Shown piece by piece: positions 15,001 through 24,000 of a stretch of 64,000 bases of DNA. Numbering within the stretch: the first letter of the stretch is position 1; every line of letters begins with the position of its first letter. Source of the stretch: a virus. Made by a program: the position numbers. The stretch spans positions 1 to 64,000 of the IMG/VR virus record IMGVR_UViG_3300025864_000012; one strand, given 5' to 3'.

Positions 15001-18000
15001 GCTTCCCAAGGCGTCGTGCTTCCTCCTCTGAAATGCCCATACCTTGCGCGATAACCTGATAGCTAATGCCGCGCGCACGCCAAGTCAGAACCTTCTCGAG
15101 CGCAGCGGGATCCTCTAGCGAAGTTGCCATGTGCCATCCTCATGAATCGTAGACCGCAGGTCAAAGACAGTTGTGCGGGCCAGTTGCGGGCGCATCTTGA
15201 CCTCCCAGAAGTCACCTTGACTGCGACCCTTCTTGTTCAGCGTGACGTAGCCCGGGTAGCGACGCACTAGCTCAACCGCATCCTCATTGTTCCGCTCCAC
15301 GTTGCGGTAGGTGACTTTATCCCCCTCCACATACGGAGCGGCGTTGTGACCGCCCTTCGCGTTGTAGTACTTCGTCTTGAGGCCAACGAAGTTGTAGCGA
15401 CAGATGGCCCGGTCATCCACAAACCGCATGATCGTGCGTTGGACCTCCTCCTTGTCCCGGGAGTCGACGATATCGTCGTATCGGTTCCGGAAGCCCATGA
15501 ACGCCCCCACGATAACACGAAGACCGAACGTCACCGTCGGCTGCATGAACATCGGGTTCGGAGACCCCGTGGGATAGATACCCCACAGACTGGCCCCGCC
15601 GTCCATCATGACGCCAAACGCCTCGACCGCCAGCTTGTGAACGCTGGGCAACGGAATGATCTTCTTCTCGTTGAGGCGCAGGGCCAGATCTTGGAGGTCG
15701 TCGTCGAAGCTCAGCACCAGCTGTCCCTCGGGGTAGTGGCGCACGATCTTGTTGCGCGCCGCCGTGATAGTCGTGGGCACCACCACCATATCGCGGTACA
15801 TATGGCGCGGCACGGCATCCCGGTAGGCGTCCAGTTCCTCCGCGTCCACGAACAGGGTGATCCGCTCCGGGTCGATACCCCGTGCGATGACAAGCGGTAA
15901 CGTCTTTGACAGCAGGGTATCGACACGCTTGTAGCTCGGGATCGCTACCTCGTAGTTCTCAGGCGTAGATCGGGTCGTACTCATAGATTACGTCTCCATT
16001 CTCATCGAGGCCAACCGGCTTCAAGATGCCACCGTGCTGCCTGTACGGGGATGCAGCGGTGTTCGGGTGGTTCCAGTCGTGGTGCATCTCGTCAAACAAC
16101 GTGAGGTCAAAGAACTTCGCACGGCCCTCGCTGGAGTTCGTATTGTACCCGCACGCCCGTTGGTAGATGACATCGCCAACGATCCCTTGGAGGTCGGGAG
16201 CAATGTCCCCGGACCACGTCACGCGCCCCACGCCTGTCTCCTCGTAACGCTTTCTGGCACGCACCAATGCTTCGCCTATCTGGCCCCGTGAGTAGTTCCA
16301 CGACTCGTCAAGGCCACAGCAGGAACCGTTGTGGCAACGCTCCTTGAAGTGCGCGTCGCTGACGTAGAAGCGAATGCCGTGCATCTCGCAAACCGCCTGC
16401 ATCTGGTTGACCAACGGCCGCTTGTAGTCACGGTTCAGGCGCAGGTAGCCAGACGAGTTGCTGCGCTCGCGGTAGAACTGAACGATGTCGAAGCCCACTG
16501 TCTTGCTGAGAAGCGGGTAGCGCCACTTCTTGCCCGAGGGGCTACGCTGCTCGAGACAGAAGAACTCGGTGCTCAGGGCGGTCGCGCCGGCATCAGCGGC
16601 ACGCTCGATGAGGCGCACATGGCCAGGGGTGCCATCTTTCACGGGCAGGTCGCTCATGCCCGGGACGAAGGGCCGCAGGCGCAGGGTCACGCCGCCCGCC
16701 GCGAACTGCGCGGCACGGGCCATGCCCTCGAACCGCTCGGTCGTGGTTGGAACACCGCGCTCGACCGACCGCACCATATCTTCGTTGTTGGAGATGATGC
16801 TGAACTTCACGTTCCAGGGCATGCCCTTGAACAACTCGACGTAGCGTTCGTCCTCCGTCCACCAAGCAAACTTGGTCGAGAAGCAAAGTGGGTACTCGAT
16901 CTCGCGGAAGAACTTGAGCAGCTCGAGCGTCACGCCATGCTTTCTCTCAAAGAGGTCGAACTGATCAGAGAGACCCCCCCACTGCATGGGCCTACGGGCT
17001 GCCACGTAGTGCTTGAATTGGCTATCACCGCCGGTGAAGATCTTCTTGACAGACTCAACGTCCACTGGGCGAATGTTCTTGGTGGCGAAGTTCTTCTTTG
17101 CGACCCCCACATCACGCTGGTTGACACTGAAGCAGTTGCGGCTATGGAATCCTTGGCCGATGTAATTGCCAGACGTGGTCTTGAGGCTGATCACTTCGTG
17201 CTCACCCAGTTCATCCTGAATCGACACAATGGGATCCCACTCCACGGCACACTCGCGACCGGACATCTGCCGCTTCTGCGTACTAGCCGAGTCGAAGTGA
17301 GCAAAGAATCGTGCGGCGGAGTTCATGCCGCCGTTCAGGCCGATGCCCTTCCACATCTCAGACAGATCGTTGAACCCGGCAGCCCGCAGAGCATCCAGAA
17401 CGCGCTCGTAAGTCAGGGGTTCCTCCCCCGCCTCAATGGCGAAGGCGAGGCTGCCCTGCTGCGACCAAGCGCCTACACCATCGAAGATTCCTGCGATCCA
17501 GCCGCGCCAGTACTCTGGATCCTGACAATGCTGGCGCGTCTTGAGCAACTCGACAACAGCCTTCTGCGCGATCCTCACGCCCTGGGGATGAGTACCACTC
17601 CGCGCGAAGGAGTTCAAGACGACATCAAGATCGGCCGCGTATTCCTCGAAGCGGGCGAAGGCAACACGATCCTTACGATACATGCGGAAACTGCACACGT
17701 GGGACTTCCGGTCGGAGTAGTCATAGGACTTGTCAATGAACGTCGCGCTACACTCCGCCAGGCCATGCATGTAGCCCCACTTGTAGTCCCGAGTCGCCTC
17801 CCTTGGATCCACCGCCTCTGCCACGCTGTGGAACTCCATGCCATAGCCCGCCCGGCAATAACCAGTCATCTCAGACTCGTTGGACCGCAAGAACCAATGG
17901 TGATCGGGAGTGCAGCGGACAGTCTTGCCACTGGCGGTCTCGATGGACATCAGCGGGGCCGTGCGCTTGAACACCTCGACAACGACGTTATCCACGCCCT

Positions 18001-21000: not shown

Positions 21001-24000
21001 CTGACCCCCTCGTGGGTGAATGAAAACTTCATCGGCTTCGCCCCTGCCGCCTTCAGTGCTTCCTGTACCGCGAACCGCTTCTCGGTCTCGCAGATGAAGT
21101 ACATGAAGCCACCGCCGCCAGCCCCCATCACTTTGCCACCCAGCGCACCTGCCTCGCGGGCCACCGTGTAGAAGCCGTCAAGGCGATCGTTTGTGATGCC
21201 ATCGGCCATGAGCTTCTTACACTCCCAGGCCCGATGAAGCAGGTCCCCAAGCAGGGAGATCTTGTCGGTCAAGAGTGCGTTCTTCATCTCGTAGGCGATG
21301 TCACGCAGCTCATGCGTGGCGCTCAATGCCCGCTTGTCCCCCTTCGCAATGTTGCCGGCCTGCTTGTCAATGATGTGAGACGAGAAGTGGCTACCGCCCG
21401 CGTAGGCAAAGATTGACCTGTACTCAAGCTCACACATGGTCGAGGGCCGAACACGCAGGGGATTCACAACGACATCCCCTGCGTCAGGCGCTATCTCGAT
21501 GAGATTGAAGCCCCCAAACGTACAGGCGTACTGGTCTTGAAAACCCCCACTGATCTGAGCCAGACAACGCTCCACATACCACGCCTCTGAAGCAATGTCG
21601 TAGTAGTCGGCCTTCATGCGGAGATGATCGCGTATCGCAGCTATGAGGGCCACGGTTATGGCAGAAGAAGACCCCAGCCCAGAACCAGGCGGGGCGTCAT
21701 TGTGCAGTATAGCTTCCATGCCGTCCCCGACCGCCAGATTCCCACGATAGCGCCCCATGACATGCCCGGCCAGATTGAGCTGGCCGTCGAAGACAATCTC
21801 CTTGTCAACCAGCGAGGATGCCTGACAGCCATAGTCCAAGCTCTCAACGCGCAGAACCTCGGGCACCCATCGCACGCTGGCATACGCGTAACAGTCGATG
21901 GTGGCGCTCAACACAGTGCCACCGTACTCCGTGACGTAAGGCGGCACATCGCTGCCGCCGCCGCCAAAGCTAACCCGAAGGGGGGCTCTTGCGCGAGTGA
22001 GCATCAACGCCAACAGTAGACTAGGCTGAACCAGTTATGCATAGGCGGGTCAGGGTTGAACCGCGTATGCGGGAAGTGGTCAGCTAGCAGCTTGACCATC
22101 TCACGGTAGTTACTGTGGTCACGATCTCGACAGGCGTTGAAGTGATACTCCATCGCCAACGCCCGCAAAGAGCCGAGAGGCAGGCTCGGGATGATCTCCC
22201 TCTCCGCCCCTTCAATGTCCAACTTGAGACAGTTGACGCCGTACTGCTCAATGAGGTCGACAATGTTCCGTGCCGGAACCTTGAGGCCCGGACGTCCGCG
22301 CTTCACGTAAAGGCTGTGACTGCCGGTGTTGCCTGTGACGTTCTGGTAGAGCGTGACGCTCTGGGTGTCGTCCGCAACCAAAGCGGCCCGAATAACCACA
22401 ACGTTCTGGCAATCGTTCAGGTGAAGATTGCGCTTGAGCAGGTCGAAGTTGGTCGGCTCGGGCTCGACTGCAACTACCCTATCGCACTGACCGGAAGCGA
22501 TCACGGAGAACGCCCCGATGTTTGCTCCGCCATCGAGCCAAACGTCATCGGGCTCAATGGAGCGGTGACGTTCGTAGATGCGACGCTTGGCTATGTCGGT
22601 GAGGGTCGCAAAGTCGCAACAGTGCGGGCGATACATGAACTCCCTACCAGCGTAGCTGATGATCTCGAGCTGACGCTCGGGTCCACCATCCCAAACGGAA
22701 GTCACGGCCTTTGCCCCGAAGGCGGTAGGCTCGGTGTAGAGCGGATCCTTGTGGCGCTTGTCGCTCATTAGGAGGCTTCCTGCTGTTCCGCTATCTCCTC
22801 ACCGGCCCCAGCCAGGTCAGAGTAGCGCCAGAGAATCTTGTTTGTGTCTGGTTCTCTTCCGAAACGCTGATAGAAGTCCGCCAGCTCACTTTCTTCCTCG
22901 AAGACAACAATGCAACGCAGCCGTTCTGTGCTCACGCCCTCGATGTCAAGAAACGGCAAAGAATCTGGCTTGTTGTCCAGATCAACATCCGTCACGCCCG
23001 CTTCGCTACTAAGCTGCTCAAGCAGCTTGCGCGTGTTCAGATCTTGGGCCTGAACATCCACCAGAATGTCATCGAGCTTCTCGCGGTCCGGGACTGCGAG
23101 GTCGCCGACCGTGTCAAAGGTGGCGAGAACGAGCTTCTCCTCGTCCGGGTTGAGGTCCACGTAGACCGCCGGTATGGTGGGCTCCTTCTTCTCCACGGCC
23201 AGCGCCACACGCATATGGCCGTCGAGAAGCACCTTGTGATTCTGCTGCCCCCCCCACGCCGGGTCGGTGCGCAGATTGACAATCACGTCCTGGACGAAGC
23301 CAACCTCATCAAGGATGCCCGTCATAGCACCGGCCTGACCAGCCGGATGAATGCGCCAGTTGTCTTGGTGGGCCATCAGCTTCGCCGGGTCGGTCTCCTG
23401 CCGACCCACGATCCTGTTGCGCCAACTTCCTTCGGCCTGCTCCACTACTGTCTCCTCTCCCATGCTAGAACTCCACCCTTTCGATTGCGTCCACTATTGC
23501 GTCGGTCCCACGCTCAGCATGTTCCATAAAATCAAACAAGCGCTCCGAGAGCCCGTAGAGCTGAGTGATCTTCGTAGAAAGGAACTGCGACGTGCCGTAT
23601 CCCGTCAGGTCAATAGAGTATGCCCAAGGATCACACGACAGGCGACGACGGTAATCCTTCAGCCCGTCCATCGCAGGCGTGCCCCGCGTGTAGTCCCCCA
23701 CCCACGCCTGCTCATCGGTGAGAATGATGATGCGATCGTAAGGCTTCGTCAGGTTCGAGAAGATGAGCCGGAAATCGGTGTTGCCGTTCTGACTCTCGTT
23801 CTCAATCTGCTTGGCGAGGTCCAGCACGGGGGCCAGTGGATTGAGCGTCACCCAACCGCAATAGGCCGTCTCGGGCGTCATTCTCCCAAAGCCATAGTTG
23901 TGCCCGCCGCTGAACCACAGCACATCCGCGTCGTTACGCTTGTAGAGCGCCGCCGCAAAGATAGCCGCCGTACGCAGCGGCGACTTCGTGCCGGGCACCC

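What the first reader, a model, noticed from the sequence alone, without database searches (positions are those of the whole stretch)
15115..23463. Candidate heptose-based DNA hypermodification system without a TET/JBP dioxygenase
Seen in sequence: one tightly packed run of ParB-like, FkbM methyltransferase, hddA, gmhA, gmhB, small ORF, rSAM-SPASM, def, SplB-like rSAM and TAGT/GREB1-like glycosyltransferase, followed by an HTH gene and ssb. Established: GmhA-HddA-GmhB make D-glycero-alpha-D-manno-heptose 1-phosphate, the GDP-heptose precursor. TAGTs, FkbM methylases and ParB-like proteins recur in phage base-glycosylation loci, usually with a TET/JBP enzyme that creates the hydroxymethyl acceptor. 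Neither TET/JBP nor the HddC nucleotidyltransferase is visible in this window. Inference: a radical SAM enzyme activates a pyrimidine without oxygen, and the TAGT attaches a possibly O-methylated or oxidised heptose. I know of no described heptosylated DNA base. Virion or host-surface glycosylation is the alternative.
Basis: partly seen in the sequence, partly recalled or inferred. Interest (0 to 1): 0.88.

Follow-up and report, generated by a model that had tools for sequence, protein, structure and literature searches.

The report
Radical-SAM phage DNA heptose-modification operon
An uncultured 94-kb peat phage carries one tight operon that most likely puts a sugar, probably a seven-carbon heptose, on thymines of its own DNA, and a radical-SAM enzyme sits where known phages use the oxygen-requiring TET/JBP oxidase, which points to an untested oxygen-free route to modified DNA.

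Summary
The gene run is real and lies at the stated coordinates. On the minus strand it reads ParB-like, FkbM methyltransferase, HddA-, GmhA- and GmhB-like, SPASM/twitch radical SAM, peptide deformylase, an intein-split SPL-like radical SAM, a TAGT glycosyltransferase, an HTH protein and SSB.

The complete 94-kb genome has no TET/JBP, thymidylate-synthase-like hydroxymethylase, C5 DNA methylase, sugar nucleotidyltransferase or second glycosyltransferase.

- **The transferase acts on DNA.** Its relatives are fused to Tet_JBP, DNA methylase or ParB_N.
- **The SPL-like radical SAM is a large phage family.** It has 348 IMG/VR loci. A ParB-like gene lies beside it in 90 of 90 loci with enough flank, and a TAGT or a P-loop kinase usually does too. 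It is fused to TAGT in two proteins, never lies beside a TET, and is found almost only in anaerobe bins. The model's best solved match is spore photoproduct lyase.

The oxygen-free, TET-replacing reading is therefore well supported by context. No chemistry has been shown.

The heptose claim is weaker. The activating nucleotidyltransferase is missing. The FkbM and SPASM enzymes recur in heptose-less relatives. Heptosyl-5hmC has already been published.

The scan has noted the ParB + radical SAM + glycosyltransferase cassette before on other genomes. The heptose cassette is specific to this phage.

The parts
22768..23463 (-). ParB-like helper protein (231 aa) that keeps the GxxR motif (DGHMR)
   Evidence: phrog_498 E 1e-11 and phrog_620 E 9e-6. 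No Pfam hit on its own. The family alignment A5 with this protein as first row matches ParB/Spo0J/Noc structures at E 2e-10 to 1e-7, and 12 of 30 members hit Pfam ParB_N. A ParB-like gene lies next to the radical SAM in 90 of 90 loci with enough flank.
22004..22768 (-). FkbM-family SAM-dependent methyltransferase (254 aa)
   Evidence: PF05050 E 7.5e-13. TIGR01444 83 bits against a cut-off of 37.7. A homologue (E 9e-15) directly follows the radical SAM in L134.
20985..22013 (-). HddA-like GHMP kinase (D-glycero-alpha-D-manno-heptose 7-phosphate 1-kinase type)
   Evidence: NF049969 matches end to end, E 9e-70, 236 bits, below the cut-off of 600. It is 52-58% identical to bacterial chromosomal proteins that JGI labels as this kinase.
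20416..20997 (-). GmhA, sedoheptulose 7-phosphate isomerase
   Evidence: PRK13936 218 bits (cut-off 276) and TIGR00441 198 bits (cut-off 209). The GNGGSAADAQH and STSG motifs are present.
19931..20425 (-). GmhB-type HAD-IIIA heptose 1,7-bisphosphate 7-phosphatase
   Evidence: PRK08942 149 bits and TIGR01656 113 bits against a cut-off of 84. DRDGV motif and CxH..CxC zinc loop are present.
18812..19906 (-). Radical SAM enzyme with a SPASM/twitch auxiliary-cluster domain. The probable true start is near 19741.
   Evidence: PF13186 E 2.7e-12. CQLSCEMC motif. The C-terminal part matches BtrN (4m7t) at E 4e-9. The nearest Atlas clusters are 94-100% viral. Relatives in L074, L094, L095 and L138 all lie beside a ParB-like gene, a TAGT-like glycosyltransferase and the SPL-like radical SAM.
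18214..18756 (-). Peptide deformylase with all three catalytic motifs. Its role in the operon is unknown.
   Evidence: PF01327 E 4.7e-45. NF001159 164 bits against a cut-off of 125. Motifs GLGLAAPQ, EGCLS and HEVDH are present.
15959..18217 (-). SPL-like radical SAM enzyme (the extein is about 426 aa), interrupted by an intein. Candidate maker of the acceptor base.
   Evidence: NF038136 E 6e-25 and NF038135. It is 47-54% identical to intein-free relatives. The family model has pLDDT 90 and its six best PDB matches are spore photoproduct lyase, E 6e-8.
17135..18112 (-). Intein (Cys36 to Asn361) inserted just before the third Cys of the CxxxCxxC cluster motif. The +1 residue is that Cys.
   Evidence: TIGR01445 intein N-terminal region and PF14890. 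The junction follows from the alignment to intein-free relatives.
15115..15984 (-). TAGT-clade GT-A glycosyltransferase with a DDD motif at 94-96. It is the only glycosyltransferase family found in the genome.
   Evidence: PF20691 35.5 bits against a cut-off of 27.5. 1418 relatives. Fused relatives carry Tet_JBP, DNA_methylase or ParB_N. GT2, GT1 and GT9 are absent from the genome.
14654..15130 (-). Small HTH protein with an acidic tail, overlapping the end of the glycosyltransferase gene
   Evidence: phrog_645 E 2.6e-6. The gene that follows the radical SAM in 35 related loci hits the same PHROG. A profile of that gene cluster did not match this protein directly.
14243..14653 (-). Single-strand DNA-binding protein, the last gene of the packed run (context)
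   Evidence: PF00436 E 7e-34.

Best explanation
This is a post-replicative DNA hypermodification operon of a peat phage.

Inferred mechanism:
1. The ParB-like protein helps the SPL-like radical SAM enzyme act on double-stranded phage DNA, once the intein has spliced out.
2. The radical SAM enzyme uses a 5'-deoxyadenosyl radical to take a hydrogen from the C5-methyl of thymine. The resulting methyl radical is converted, without O2, into an acceptor. The acceptor is most likely 5-hydroxymethyluracil, with the oxygen coming from water.
3. The TAGT glycosyltransferase puts a sugar on that hydroxyl.
4. In this phage the sugar is probably a D-glycero-D-manno-heptose. The phage's own GmhA, HddA-like kinase and GmhB would make it as heptose 1-phosphate. 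A host nucleotidyltransferase would then activate it, because the phage has none.
5. The FkbM methyltransferase and the BtrN-like SPASM radical SAM tailor the product further. They could act on the sugar or on the base.

Shown here: gene content, family memberships, the conserved neighbourhoods, the fusion proteins and the fold. Inferred: every chemical step, the target base and the identity of the sugar.
For: 1. Operon. Eleven genes are packed with overlaps of 1 to 26 nt or gaps up to 55 nt. The sugar genes lie between the ParB-like gene and the radical SAM gene, which are direct neighbours in L004 and L005.

2. The transferase belongs with DNA-acting enzymes.
- Pfam TAGT is above its cut-off.
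- Relatives are fused to DNA_methylase + Tet_JBP, to Tet_JBP, or to ParB_N.
- In cultured phages the homologue sits in ParB, Tet/JBP, GT, deacetylase (Arthrobacter) or in ParB, DpdA-like, GT, deacetylase (Mycobacterium).
- Phage TET-cluster glycosyltransferases glycosylate 5hmC in DNA in vitro (PMC8256090).

3. The radical SAM family.
- It has 2186 protein hits and 348 IMG/VR loci.
- P0173 is a TAGT-radical-SAM fusion. My own BLAST places the GT at residues 2-230 and the radical SAM at 245-663.
- A ParB-like gene is present in 54 of 54 viral and 36 of 36 genome-bin loci that have at least 3 kb upstream.
- A TAGT or a P-loop kinase is present in 47 of 54 and 29 of 36 of those loci. By family hits alone the P-loop kinase resembles the kinase class that acts on 5-hmdU in DNA.
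- SAM synthetase is a frequent neighbour.
- No locus shows a significant TET-like ORF.

4. Fold. The family model has pLDDT 90.3. Its six best PDB matches are spore photoproduct lyase, E 6e-8, about 200 times better than any other radical SAM.

5. Precedents.
- ParB activates phage thymine dioxygenases on double-stranded DNA (PMC13229309).
- An SPL-like radical SAM, M6 gp53, acts on a modified thymine in DNA (PMC8989533).

6. Nothing else in the genome can make an acceptor. It has no Tet_JBP, Thymidylat_synt, TGT or DNA_methylase.

7. Ecology.
- The genome bins that hold the family are almost all strict anaerobes.
- This phage comes from peat.
- The TET versions examined here infect aerobic Arthrobacter and Mycobacterium.

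8. Heptose.
- The GmhA, HddA and GmhB trio has intact motifs.
- TAGT is the only glycosyltransferase family found in the genome.
- Other radical-SAM loci and phage S-CBWM1 place sugar-activation genes beside a TAGT.
- Heptosyl-5hmC is chemically possible.
Against: - No chemistry has been shown for any member of the radical SAM family.
- Hydroxylation is not a typical radical SAM outcome. It would need an electron sink. The conserved C-x4-CC motif is only a candidate for one.
- The relation to SPL appears only at fold level. The family profile finds no PDB sequence. NCBIfam scores are far below the equivalog cut-offs.
- The folded model is of a relative 50% identical to this protein, not of the protein itself.
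- No nucleotidyltransferase (PF00483, PF12804, PF01467, or the cytidylyltransferase of related loci) is in the genome. The phage therefore cannot make an NDP-heptose alone.
- The heptose trio was found in none of the roughly 135 other radical-SAM loci. Other phage HddA loci lie in polysaccharide-type islands without TAGT.
- FkbM and the SPASM radical SAM recur in loci without visible heptose genes.
- The peptide deformylase inside the operon is unexplained.
- The ParB-like protein has no Pfam ParB_N hit on its own.
Confidence: 0.55

Rival explanations
1. Two functions share one operon. The ParB-like protein, the radical SAM and the TAGT modify DNA with an ordinary host sugar such as UDP-glucose or UDP-GlcNAc. 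The GmhA, HddA and GmhB genes are an auxiliary metabolic island that boosts heptose supply for the host envelope, an S-layer or virion glycans.
For: - No nucleotidyltransferase is in the genome.
- Characterised phage TET-cluster glycosyltransferases use UDP-Glc or UDP-GlcNAc.
- Heptose genes in cyanophage SynMITS9220M01 lie in a polysaccharide-type island with classical glycosyltransferases and epimerases. Caulobacter phage Cr30 also carries an annotated heptose 7-phosphate kinase.
- The heptose trio is absent from all other radical-SAM loci examined.
Against: - The trio is inserted between the ParB-like gene and the radical SAM gene, which are direct neighbours in the closest relatives, and it is coupled to them by overlapping stops and starts.
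- The genome has no GT2, GT1 or GT9 enzyme that could use the heptose elsewhere.
- Related loci and S-CBWM1 place sugar-activation genes next to a TAGT.
Confidence: 0.25
2. The SPL-like radical SAM is a tailoring enzyme rather than the initiator. Like M6 gp53, it rearranges or crosslinks a base that is already modified. The acceptor would come from an unrecognised phage enzyme or from the host.
For: The only characterised SPL-like radical SAM in phage DNA modification is an isomerase that acts after 5-hmdU has been made and aminoacylated (PMC8989533). The operon holds a second radical SAM and proteins of unknown function.
Against: - No thymidylate-synthase-like hydroxymethylase, TET, TGT or C5 methylase is in the complete genome.
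- L004 shows only the ParB-like gene and the radical SAM ahead of its next large genes.
- The family pairs with two different classes of enzymes that consume a hydroxymethyl base: TAGT, and a P-loop kinase that would fit this role if it is a 5-hmdU DNA kinase.
Confidence: 0.1
3. The cluster acts on RNA or protein rather than DNA. This phage is rich in RNA-repair genes, and Ro60 with its Y RNAs lies directly upstream.
For: The TROVE/Ro60 gene ends 1 nt before the ParB-like gene. An RNA-repair set is spread over the genome. SPASM radical SAMs often modify peptides. A peptide deformylase lies inside the operon.
Against: - TAGT relatives are fused to C5 DNA methylase, TET and ParB.
- In relatives the module lies directly before the terminase and portal genes.
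- SSB ends the run.
- The best structural match is a DNA enzyme.
Confidence: 0.05
4. The SPL-like enzyme is simply a DNA repair lyase, and its closeness to the glycosyltransferase is chance.
For: JGI labels family members 'DNA repair photolyase'. The best structural match is spore photoproduct lyase.
Against: - Fusions to TAGT exist.
- A ParB-like gene accompanies it in 90 of 90 loci.
- It is linked to SAM synthetase, a P-loop kinase and TAGT.
- Its hosts are mostly gut and rumen anaerobes, where UV damage is not expected.
Confidence: 0.03

Closest known systems
ParB-dependent phage thymine dioxygenase (5mYOX, TET/JBP clade C1) hypermodification clusters (O'Toole et al., PNAS 2026, PMC13229309)
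   Same: A ParB-like helper stands next to the enzyme that attacks the C5-methyl of a pyrimidine in DNA. Glycosyltransferases, O-methyltransferases, kinases and terminase genes are neighbours. The modification is made after replication.
   Different: There is no Fe/2OG dioxygenase anywhere in the genome. An SPL-like radical SAM stands in its place. The associated ParB-like proteins are a separate subfamily: this phage's ParB-like protein gives no BLAST hit to the Arthrobacter or Mycobacterium phage ParBs.
Phage C5-MT/TET/glycosyltransferase clusters and their sugar products, including heptosyl-5hmC (Burke et al. 2021, PMC8256090; Pyle et al., bioRxiv 10.1101/2023.12.21.572611)
   Same: A TAGT-type or other glycosyltransferase glycosylates a hydroxymethyl pyrimidine in DNA. 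Sugar-activation genes lie in the cluster. Heptose has been seen as a DNA sugar.
   Different: Those clusters start from 5mC, which a C5 methylase makes and TET oxidises. Their heptose route uses a HAD/APH fusion, a cytidylyltransferase and a GT-B enzyme. Here the route is GmhA, a GHMP kinase and GmhB with a GT-A TAGT, no nucleotidyltransferase, no methylase and no TET.
Spore photoproduct lyase (SplB; PDB 4fhc and related entries)
   Same: Radical SAM TIM-barrel fold. It is the best structural match (E 6e-8, target TM 0.59). SPL's substrate is thymine-derived DNA, and its mechanism passes through a thymine methyl radical (established knowledge).
   Different: Identity is only 16-18%, and the profile gives no sequence-level match. 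About 70 extra C-terminal residues carry a conserved C-x4-CC motif. The genomic context is modification rather than repair.
Phage M6 gp53, an SPL-like radical SAM isomerase of N-alpha-glycinylthymidine (Lee et al. 2021, PMC8989533)
   Same: A phage-encoded radical SAM that resembles SPL and acts on a thymine derivative in DNA during hypermodification.
   Different: M6 gp53 works after 5-hmdU has been supplied, kinased and aminoacylated. This phage has no recognisable source of 5-hmdU, so the radical SAM is the candidate initiator. Direct homology to gp53 was not tested.
GDP-D-glycero-alpha-D-manno-heptose pathway (GmhA, HddA, GmhB, HddC) of bacterial S-layer and capsule glycans
   Same: The first three enzymes are present, adjacent, and carry intact motifs.
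   Different: The guanylyltransferase HddC is missing. The context is a phage DNA-modification operon, not a polysaccharide locus.

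Membership tests
TAGT (PF20691, TET-associated glycosyltransferase) | Profile match above the curated cut-off | tested here: met
   35.5 bits against 27.5, on residues 11-107. 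34.9 bits in the six-frame genome search. Relatives align over residues 10-266.
TAGT (PF20691, TET-associated glycosyltransferase) | GT-A type acidic DxD motif | tested here: met
   D94-D95-D96 is invariant in 42 relatives.
TAGT (PF20691, TET-associated glycosyltransferase) | Genomic or physical association with a TET/JBP dioxygenase | tested here: not met
   No Tet_JBP in the 94-kb genome. Relatives do show the association.
TAGT (PF20691, TET-associated glycosyltransferase) | GT-A fold | tested here: inconclusive
   The single-sequence model had pLDDT 36.
Spore photoproduct lyase / COG1533 radical SAM | CxxxCxxC cluster motif | tested here: met
   C29, C33 and, after splicing, C362. The splice junction matches the family consensus CxYCFSQYQR.
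Spore photoproduct lyase / COG1533 radical SAM | SPL is the nearest solved fold | tested here: met
   The model of P0153, which is 50% identical to this protein, has pLDDT 90.3. Its six best hits are SPL, E 6e-8 to 1.6e-7.
Spore photoproduct lyase / COG1533 radical SAM | Sequence-level membership (equivalog or profile match) | tested here: not met
   NF038136 88 bits against a cut-off of 700. NF038135 35 bits against 430. Neither the single sequence nor the family profile finds a PDB sequence.
Spore photoproduct lyase / COG1533 radical SAM | SPL catalytic Cys and Tyr relay in equivalent positions | not tested
ParB N-terminal (ParB/Srx) domain proteins | Profile match and GxxR nucleotide-binding motif | tested here: met
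   The protein has no Pfam hit on its own. The family profile with it as first row hits ParB, Spo0J and Noc at E 2e-10, and 12 of 30 members hit ParB_N. G82 and R85 are conserved, as DGHMR.
ParB-dependent 5mYOX hypermodification cluster | Fe/2OG 5-methylpyrimidine dioxygenase present | tested here: not met
ParB-dependent 5mYOX hypermodification cluster | The ParB homologue is required as activator of the base-modifying enzyme | not testable with these tools
   Only co-occurrence could be measured, at 90 of 90 loci.
GDP-D-glycero-alpha-D-manno-heptose pathway | GmhA, HddA and GmhB present | tested here: met
   The best NCBIfam model for each gene is the expected one, all just or well below the equivalog cut-offs. 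Motifs are intact. The HddA-like protein is 52-58% identical to bacterial proteins with that label.
GDP-D-glycero-alpha-D-manno-heptose pathway | HddC or another sugar-1-phosphate nucleotidyltransferase | tested here: not met
   PF00483, PF12804 and PF01467 are absent from the genome. The profile of the cytidylyltransferase from related loci is also negative.
SPASM/twitch radical SAM enzymes | CxxxCxxC plus a Cys-rich auxiliary-cluster domain | tested here: met
   CQLSCEMC motif. PF13186 E 2.7e-12. BtrN C-terminal match at E 4e-9. Conserved C200, C218, C219, C262 and C265.
Peptide deformylase | Three catalytic motifs and a score above the cut-off | tested here: met
   NF001159 164 bits against 125. 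Motifs GLGLAAPQ, EGCLS and HEVDH.
Intein | N-terminal Cys, C-terminal Asn followed by Cys/Ser/Thr, and penultimate His | tested here: inconclusive
   Cys36, Asn361 and Cys362 are present. The penultimate residue is Arg, not His. Splicing was not tested.

The most novel reading that the evidence does not exclude
The SPL-like radical SAM family, working with its ParB-like partner, is an oxygen-independent thymine C5-methyl hydroxylase or functionaliser. That would make it the anaerobic counterpart of TET/JBP. In this peat phage its product would be decorated with a phage-made heptose, possibly O-methylated or oxidised, giving a heptosylated 5-hydroxymethyluracil that has not been described in any natural DNA.
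Probability: 0.35. Interest if true: 0.9.

Novelty: new variant of a known kind. Interest (0 to 1): 0.8.

Why it matters
All known routes to hydroxymethyl pyrimidines in DNA use one of two sources. One is a folate-dependent dNMP hydroxymethylase acting before replication. The other is an O2-dependent Fe/2OG dioxygenase (TET, JBP, 5mYOX) acting after replication. Phages of strict anaerobes cannot use the second.

A radical SAM enzyme that functionalises thymine in DNA would be a new enzyme activity. It would explain how anaerobe phages build hypermodified DNA that resists restriction. It would also offer a new oxygen-free tool for DNA labelling.

The family is large and tightly conserved, with 348 IMG/VR loci, so the question applies well beyond this phage. 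This phage adds a self-encoded heptose route. It is a concrete candidate for a natural heptosylated DNA base, with simple mass predictions that can be tested.

Tried and rejected
- **Close DNA relatives in cultured phages.** Megablast of the operon against 50,697 phage records found nothing.
- **Close protein relatives in IMG/VR.** Exact-peptide scans with the glycosyltransferase, with its closest homologue P0005, and with the HddA-like protein found nothing. A word-indexed search with the glycosyltransferase returned only itself. The exhaustive HMMER search was needed to find its relatives.
- **Glycosyltransferase alignments as scan queries.** They were too divergent to yield patterns.
- **The look-up of encoding contigs.** The contexts of the closest glycosyltransferase relatives (P0005-P0013) and of the HddA-like relatives (P0274-P0277, 76-85% identity) could not be fetched.
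- **Metagenome scan with the radical SAM extein.** It found nothing closer than 56% identity and no heptose genes.
- **Single-sequence fold of the glycosyltransferase.** It failed, with pLDDT 36.
- **Sequence and profile searches of the radical SAM against PDB.** They found nothing. Only the fold search linked it to SPL.
- **Complex prediction of the L005 ParB-like protein with its radical SAM.** No verdict: score 0.01 against a mark of 0.32. This counts neither for nor against binding.
- **Expression.** No RNA holder is listed among the sequencing runs, so nothing can be said about expression.
- **Operon boundaries.** The promoter and terminator scan found no more sites than shuffled sequence gives, so boundaries rest on gene packing alone.
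- **The HTH protein.** A profile of the gene that follows the radical SAM in relatives did not match it directly. Only the shared PHROG 645 links them.
Rejected, as explained under the observation check.
- **Literature.** Searches for a radical SAM enzyme that makes 5hmU, or for an oxygen-independent thymine hydroxylase, found no such report in the held library. Subscription journals are mostly not covered.

Full report
**Where the window lies.** The window is the first 64 kb of a 94,142-bp IMG/VR virus record that CheckV rates 100% complete. Genes from about 11.6 kb onward run on the minus strand. The stretch occurs in peat metagenomes of two studies. A diverged form occurs in a 2024 soil metagenome. 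Identical contigs tile the operon in the second peat study. The soil run holds a 2351-bp contig, 93% identical, that covers 19049-21399, the stretch where the SPASM, GmhB, GmhA and HddA genes lie. The operon is therefore a real phage sequence that recurs.

**The observation.**
- ParB-like, 22768-23463.
- FkbM methyltransferase, 22004-22768.
- HddA-like GHMP kinase, 20985-22013.
- GmhA, 20416-20997.
- GmhB, 19931-20425.
- Radical SAM with a SPASM domain, 18812-19906.
- Peptide deformylase, 18214-18756.
- A 752-aa radical SAM, 15959-18217.
- TAGT glycosyltransferase, 15115-15984.
- An HTH protein, 14654-15130.
- SSB, 14243-14653.

Neighbouring genes overlap by 1 to 26 nt or are separated by at most 55 nt. 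A TROVE/Ro60 gene ends 1 nt upstream of the ParB-like gene.

Catalytic motifs are intact in GmhA (GNGGSAADAQH), in GmhB (DRDGV and a CxH..CxC loop) and in the deformylase (GLGLAAPQ, EGCLS, HEVDH). The ParB-like protein keeps GxxR.

- There is no credible separate small ORF between gmhB and the SPASM gene.
- The large radical SAM carries a 326-aa intein inserted just before the third cysteine of its CxxxCxxC motif. Splicing would restore the motif.

**What the genome lacks.** Six-frame family searches of the whole record found none of the following.
- Tet_JBP.
- Thymidylate-synthase-like hydroxymethylase.
- TGT/DpdA.
- C5 DNA methylase.
- NTP_transferase, NTP_transf_3 or cytidylyltransferase.
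- GT2, GT1 or GT9 glycosyltransferases.

The same kind of search did find the TAGT, which serves as a positive control. The Pfam batches turned up no DNA polymerase. They did find a primase-helicase, an SNF2 helicase and SSB.

**The glycosyltransferase belongs to the DNA-acting TAGT clade.** It passes the Pfam TAGT cut-off. It has 1418 relatives in the representative library, with an invariant DDD motif. Longer relatives are fusions: C5 DNA methylase + Tet_JBP + TAGT, Tet_JBP + TAGT, and TAGT + ParB_N. The best hit is a triple TAGT. By eye its C-terminal tail looks like a 2OG oxygenase, but Pfam gave the protein no hit, so that reading is unchecked.

Homologues also occur in cultured phages.
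- In Arthrobacter phages the order is ParB-like, Tet/JBP, glycosyltransferase, glucosaminyl deacetylase.
- In Mycobacterium phages such as Indlovu the order is ParB-like, a DpdA-like 'queuine tRNA-ribosyltransferase', glycosyltransferase, deacetylase, then terminase.

Phage TET-cluster glycosyltransferases have been shown to glycosylate 5hmC in DNA (PMC8256090). The gene next to this kind of glycosyltransferase is therefore normally the enzyme that makes or installs the acceptor base. In this phage that gene is the radical SAM.

**The radical SAM is a large, conserved phage family tied to ParB and to enzymes that consume hydroxymethyl bases.**
- Intein-free relatives 47-56% identical were found in IMG/VR and in metagenomes. 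A ParB-like gene lies directly upstream in both IMG/VR loci, L004 and L005. The five metagenome contigs that had upstream sequence also show a ParB match just upstream.
- A protein search gave 2186 hits of about 414 aa, many about 60% identical to one another. Two of them, P0173 and P0225, carry a TAGT domain. My BLAST placed this phage's glycosyltransferase on P0173 residues 2-230 and its radical SAM on residues 245-663.
- A pattern scan found 348 IMG/VR loci, of which 80 were fetched. A second scan gave 49 loci in genome bins.
- I clustered the neighbouring genes and searched them with profiles. A ParB-like gene lies beside the radical SAM in 54 of 54 viral and 36 of 36 genome-bin loci that have at least 3 kb of upstream sequence. 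A TAGT or a P-loop kinase is present in 47 of 54 and 29 of 36.
- The P-loop kinase matches AAA_18 and the PHROG 'thymidylate kinase'. Its likeness to the kinases that act on 5-hmdU in DNA is inferred from those family hits and was not tested.
- Other frequent neighbours are SAM synthetase, a HAD/kinase-like protein with a cytidylyltransferase (gene order ParB, HAD/kinase, cytidylyltransferase, TAGT, radical SAM), and the large terminase just downstream.
- No locus holds a significant TET-like ORF.
- L005 pairs the radical SAM with a GT-B-like and a GT2 enzyme instead of a TAGT.

**Fold.** An AlphaFold model was built on a 42-row family alignment. Its first row is the L005 protein, which is 50% identical to this phage's enzyme. 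The model reached pLDDT 90.3. Its six best PDB matches are all spore photoproduct lyase: E 6e-8 to 1.6e-7, target TM 0.59, about 305 aligned columns, 16-18% identity. The next radical SAM enzymes score about 200 times worse. Sequence and profile searches do not reach SPL, and NCBIfam scores for the Rv2578c and PA0069 families are far below their cut-offs. The relation is therefore distant and seen at fold level only. The family also has a conserved C-x4-CC motif (ERCxNGSCCG) and further conserved cysteines.

**ParB.** Alone, this phage's ParB-like protein hits only PHROGs. An alignment of it with the upstream genes of related loci matches ParB, Spo0J and Noc N-terminal domains in PDB at E 2e-10, and 12 of 30 members hit Pfam ParB_N. 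A 2026 paper shows that ParB homologues are required activators of one subclass of phage thymine dioxygenases on double-stranded DNA. It also reports that glycosyltransferases, ParBs, terminases, O-methyltransferases and kinases are their commonest neighbours (PMC13229309). The radical SAM loci have the same layout, with the dioxygenase replaced.

**Ecology.** The genome bins that hold the family are almost all strict anaerobes of gut, rumen and sediment: Prevotella, Phocaeicola, Segatella, Bacteroidales, Clostridia, Faecalibacterium, Lachnospiraceae, Selenomonas ruminantium S137, Victivallales and Thermotogota. The cultured phages with a TET next to the homologous glycosyltransferase infect aerobic Arthrobacter and Mycobacterium. 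This phage comes from peat. The split fits an oxygen-free substitute for an enzyme that needs O2.

**Mechanism proposed (inferred).** SPL chemistry passes through a thymine methyl radical (established knowledge). An SPL-like enzyme that makes this radical directly from thymine, and then passes on an electron, could give a cation that water captures. The product would be 5-hydroxymethyluracil. The conserved cysteine motif is a candidate for taking the electron.

This is the simplest common intermediate, for three reasons.
- The family pairs with TAGTs, which glycosylate hydroxymethyl bases.
- It also pairs with P-loop kinases, which in known thymidine hypermodification pathways phosphorylate 5-hmdU in DNA (PMC8989533).
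- The genome has no C5 methylase, so thymine is the only pyrimidine with a methyl group to attack.

There is a precedent for an SPL-like radical SAM acting on a thymine derivative in DNA, namely M6 gp53. That enzyme is a downstream isomerase. None of the proposed chemistry has been tested.

**The heptose part.**
- *For.* The three genes are the best matches to GmhA, HddA and GmhB. The kinase is 52-58% identical to bacterial chromosomal proteins labelled D-glycero-alpha-D-manno-heptose 7-phosphate kinase. The trio lies between the ParB-like gene and the radical SAM gene, which are adjacent in the closest relatives. The TAGT is the only glycosyltransferase found in the genome. Sugar-activation genes stand beside a TAGT in other radical-SAM loci and in cyanophage S-CBWM1, where the order is SNF2, TAGT, HAD, nucleotidyltransferase, kinase.
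- *Against.* The phage has no nucleotidyltransferase, so a host enzyme or an unknown step must activate heptose 1-phosphate. The trio is in none of the other radical-SAM loci examined. Other phage HddA genes lie in polysaccharide-type islands. I put the odds that the transferred sugar is a heptose at about even.

**FkbM, the SPASM radical SAM and the deformylase.**
- The SPASM enzyme's C-terminal domain resembles BtrN, a radical SAM alcohol dehydrogenase. Its nearest Atlas clusters are almost wholly viral.
- Independent searches for its relatives returned L074, L094, L095 and L138. Each has a TAGT-like glycosyltransferase, the SPASM radical SAM and the SPL-like radical SAM. Three also show the ParB-like gene; in L095 the contig begins at the glycosyltransferase. 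None shows heptose genes.
- An FkbM homologue directly follows the radical SAM in L134.
- Both enzymes therefore belong to the general toolkit of this module, not to heptose tailoring specifically. They may act on the sugar once it is attached, or on the base.
- The deformylase looks fully functional. It has no evident role in the operon and may be a passenger.

**Comparison with what is known, and novelty.** The overall logic matches the known 5mYOX clusters: a ParB helper, an enzyme that activates the base, a glycosyltransferase and sugar genes. What differs is the initiating enzyme. For this phage the GmhA, HddA and GmhB sugar route differs as well.

I found no paper that describes a radical SAM enzyme making the acceptor base. 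Earlier notes of this scan reached the same reading for the ParB, radical SAM and glycosyltransferase cassette on other genomes, including the L005 phage. They are not independent evidence. I rate the finding a new variant of a known kind and of high interest. The initiating chemistry and the identity of the sugar are both still to be shown.

Noticed in passing
window 17135-18112 (-): A 326-aa intein splits the radical SAM exactly before the third Cys of CxxxCxxC. It ends Ser-Arg-Asn rather than His-Asn. All fetched relatives that were aligned lack an intein here.
   Followed up: partly
window 32830-34083 (-): A second stand-alone radical SAM protein (417 aa; phrog_16999 'Fe-S oxidoreductase', E 4e-35) lies among the RNA-repair genes. 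Any relation to the operon is unknown.
   Followed up: no
window 38022-38768 and 53980-54735 (-): Two separate ClpP-like protease genes in one phage genome.
   Followed up: no
window 11998-12477, 13003-13431, 41354-41908 (-): Three HNH_3 + NUMOD3 homing-endonuclease-like genes, plus an HNH_5 gene at 11637-12083. Together with the intein they suggest heavy traffic of selfish elements.
   Followed up: no
L003 (Mycobacterium phage Indlovu) 1-3611: The gene order is ParB-like, DpdA-like 'queuine tRNA-ribosyltransferase', TAGT homologue, glucosaminyl deacetylase, adenylate kinase, terminase. A TAGT next to a DNA transglycosylase hints at a glycosylated 7-deazaguanine or a similar base in these phages.
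   Followed up: no
L146 (Synechococcus phage S-CBWM1) 3729-7921: The gene order is SNF2, TAGT homologue, HAD phosphatase, sugar-1-phosphate nucleotidyltransferase, kinase-like protein, with no TET annotated. This is a cultured phage in which TAGT-linked sugar activation could be tested.
   Followed up: partly
L009, L031, L041 and about 30 other loci: A recurring layout without a glycosyltransferase: SAM synthetase, ParB-like, an unknown 226-aa protein, P-loop kinase, radical SAM, then terminase. It suggests a non-sugar thymine hypermodification that starts from the same radical SAM.
   Followed up: partly
L134 1639-2334: An FkbM-family methyltransferase is coupled by overlapping stop and start to the radical SAM on a short contig of a Pseudomonadales-labelled bin.
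   Followed up: partly
L005 14264-17023: The large terminase of the 141-kb relative carries a Hint/LAGLIDADG intein. Inteins thus occur in different genes of this module's neighbourhood in different phages.
   Followed up: no
L096-L144: The genome bins that hold the radical SAM family are almost all obligate anaerobes. A few labels (Staphylococcus, Pseudomonadales, Methanomethylophilaceae) look like binning noise or exceptions worth checking.
   Followed up: partly
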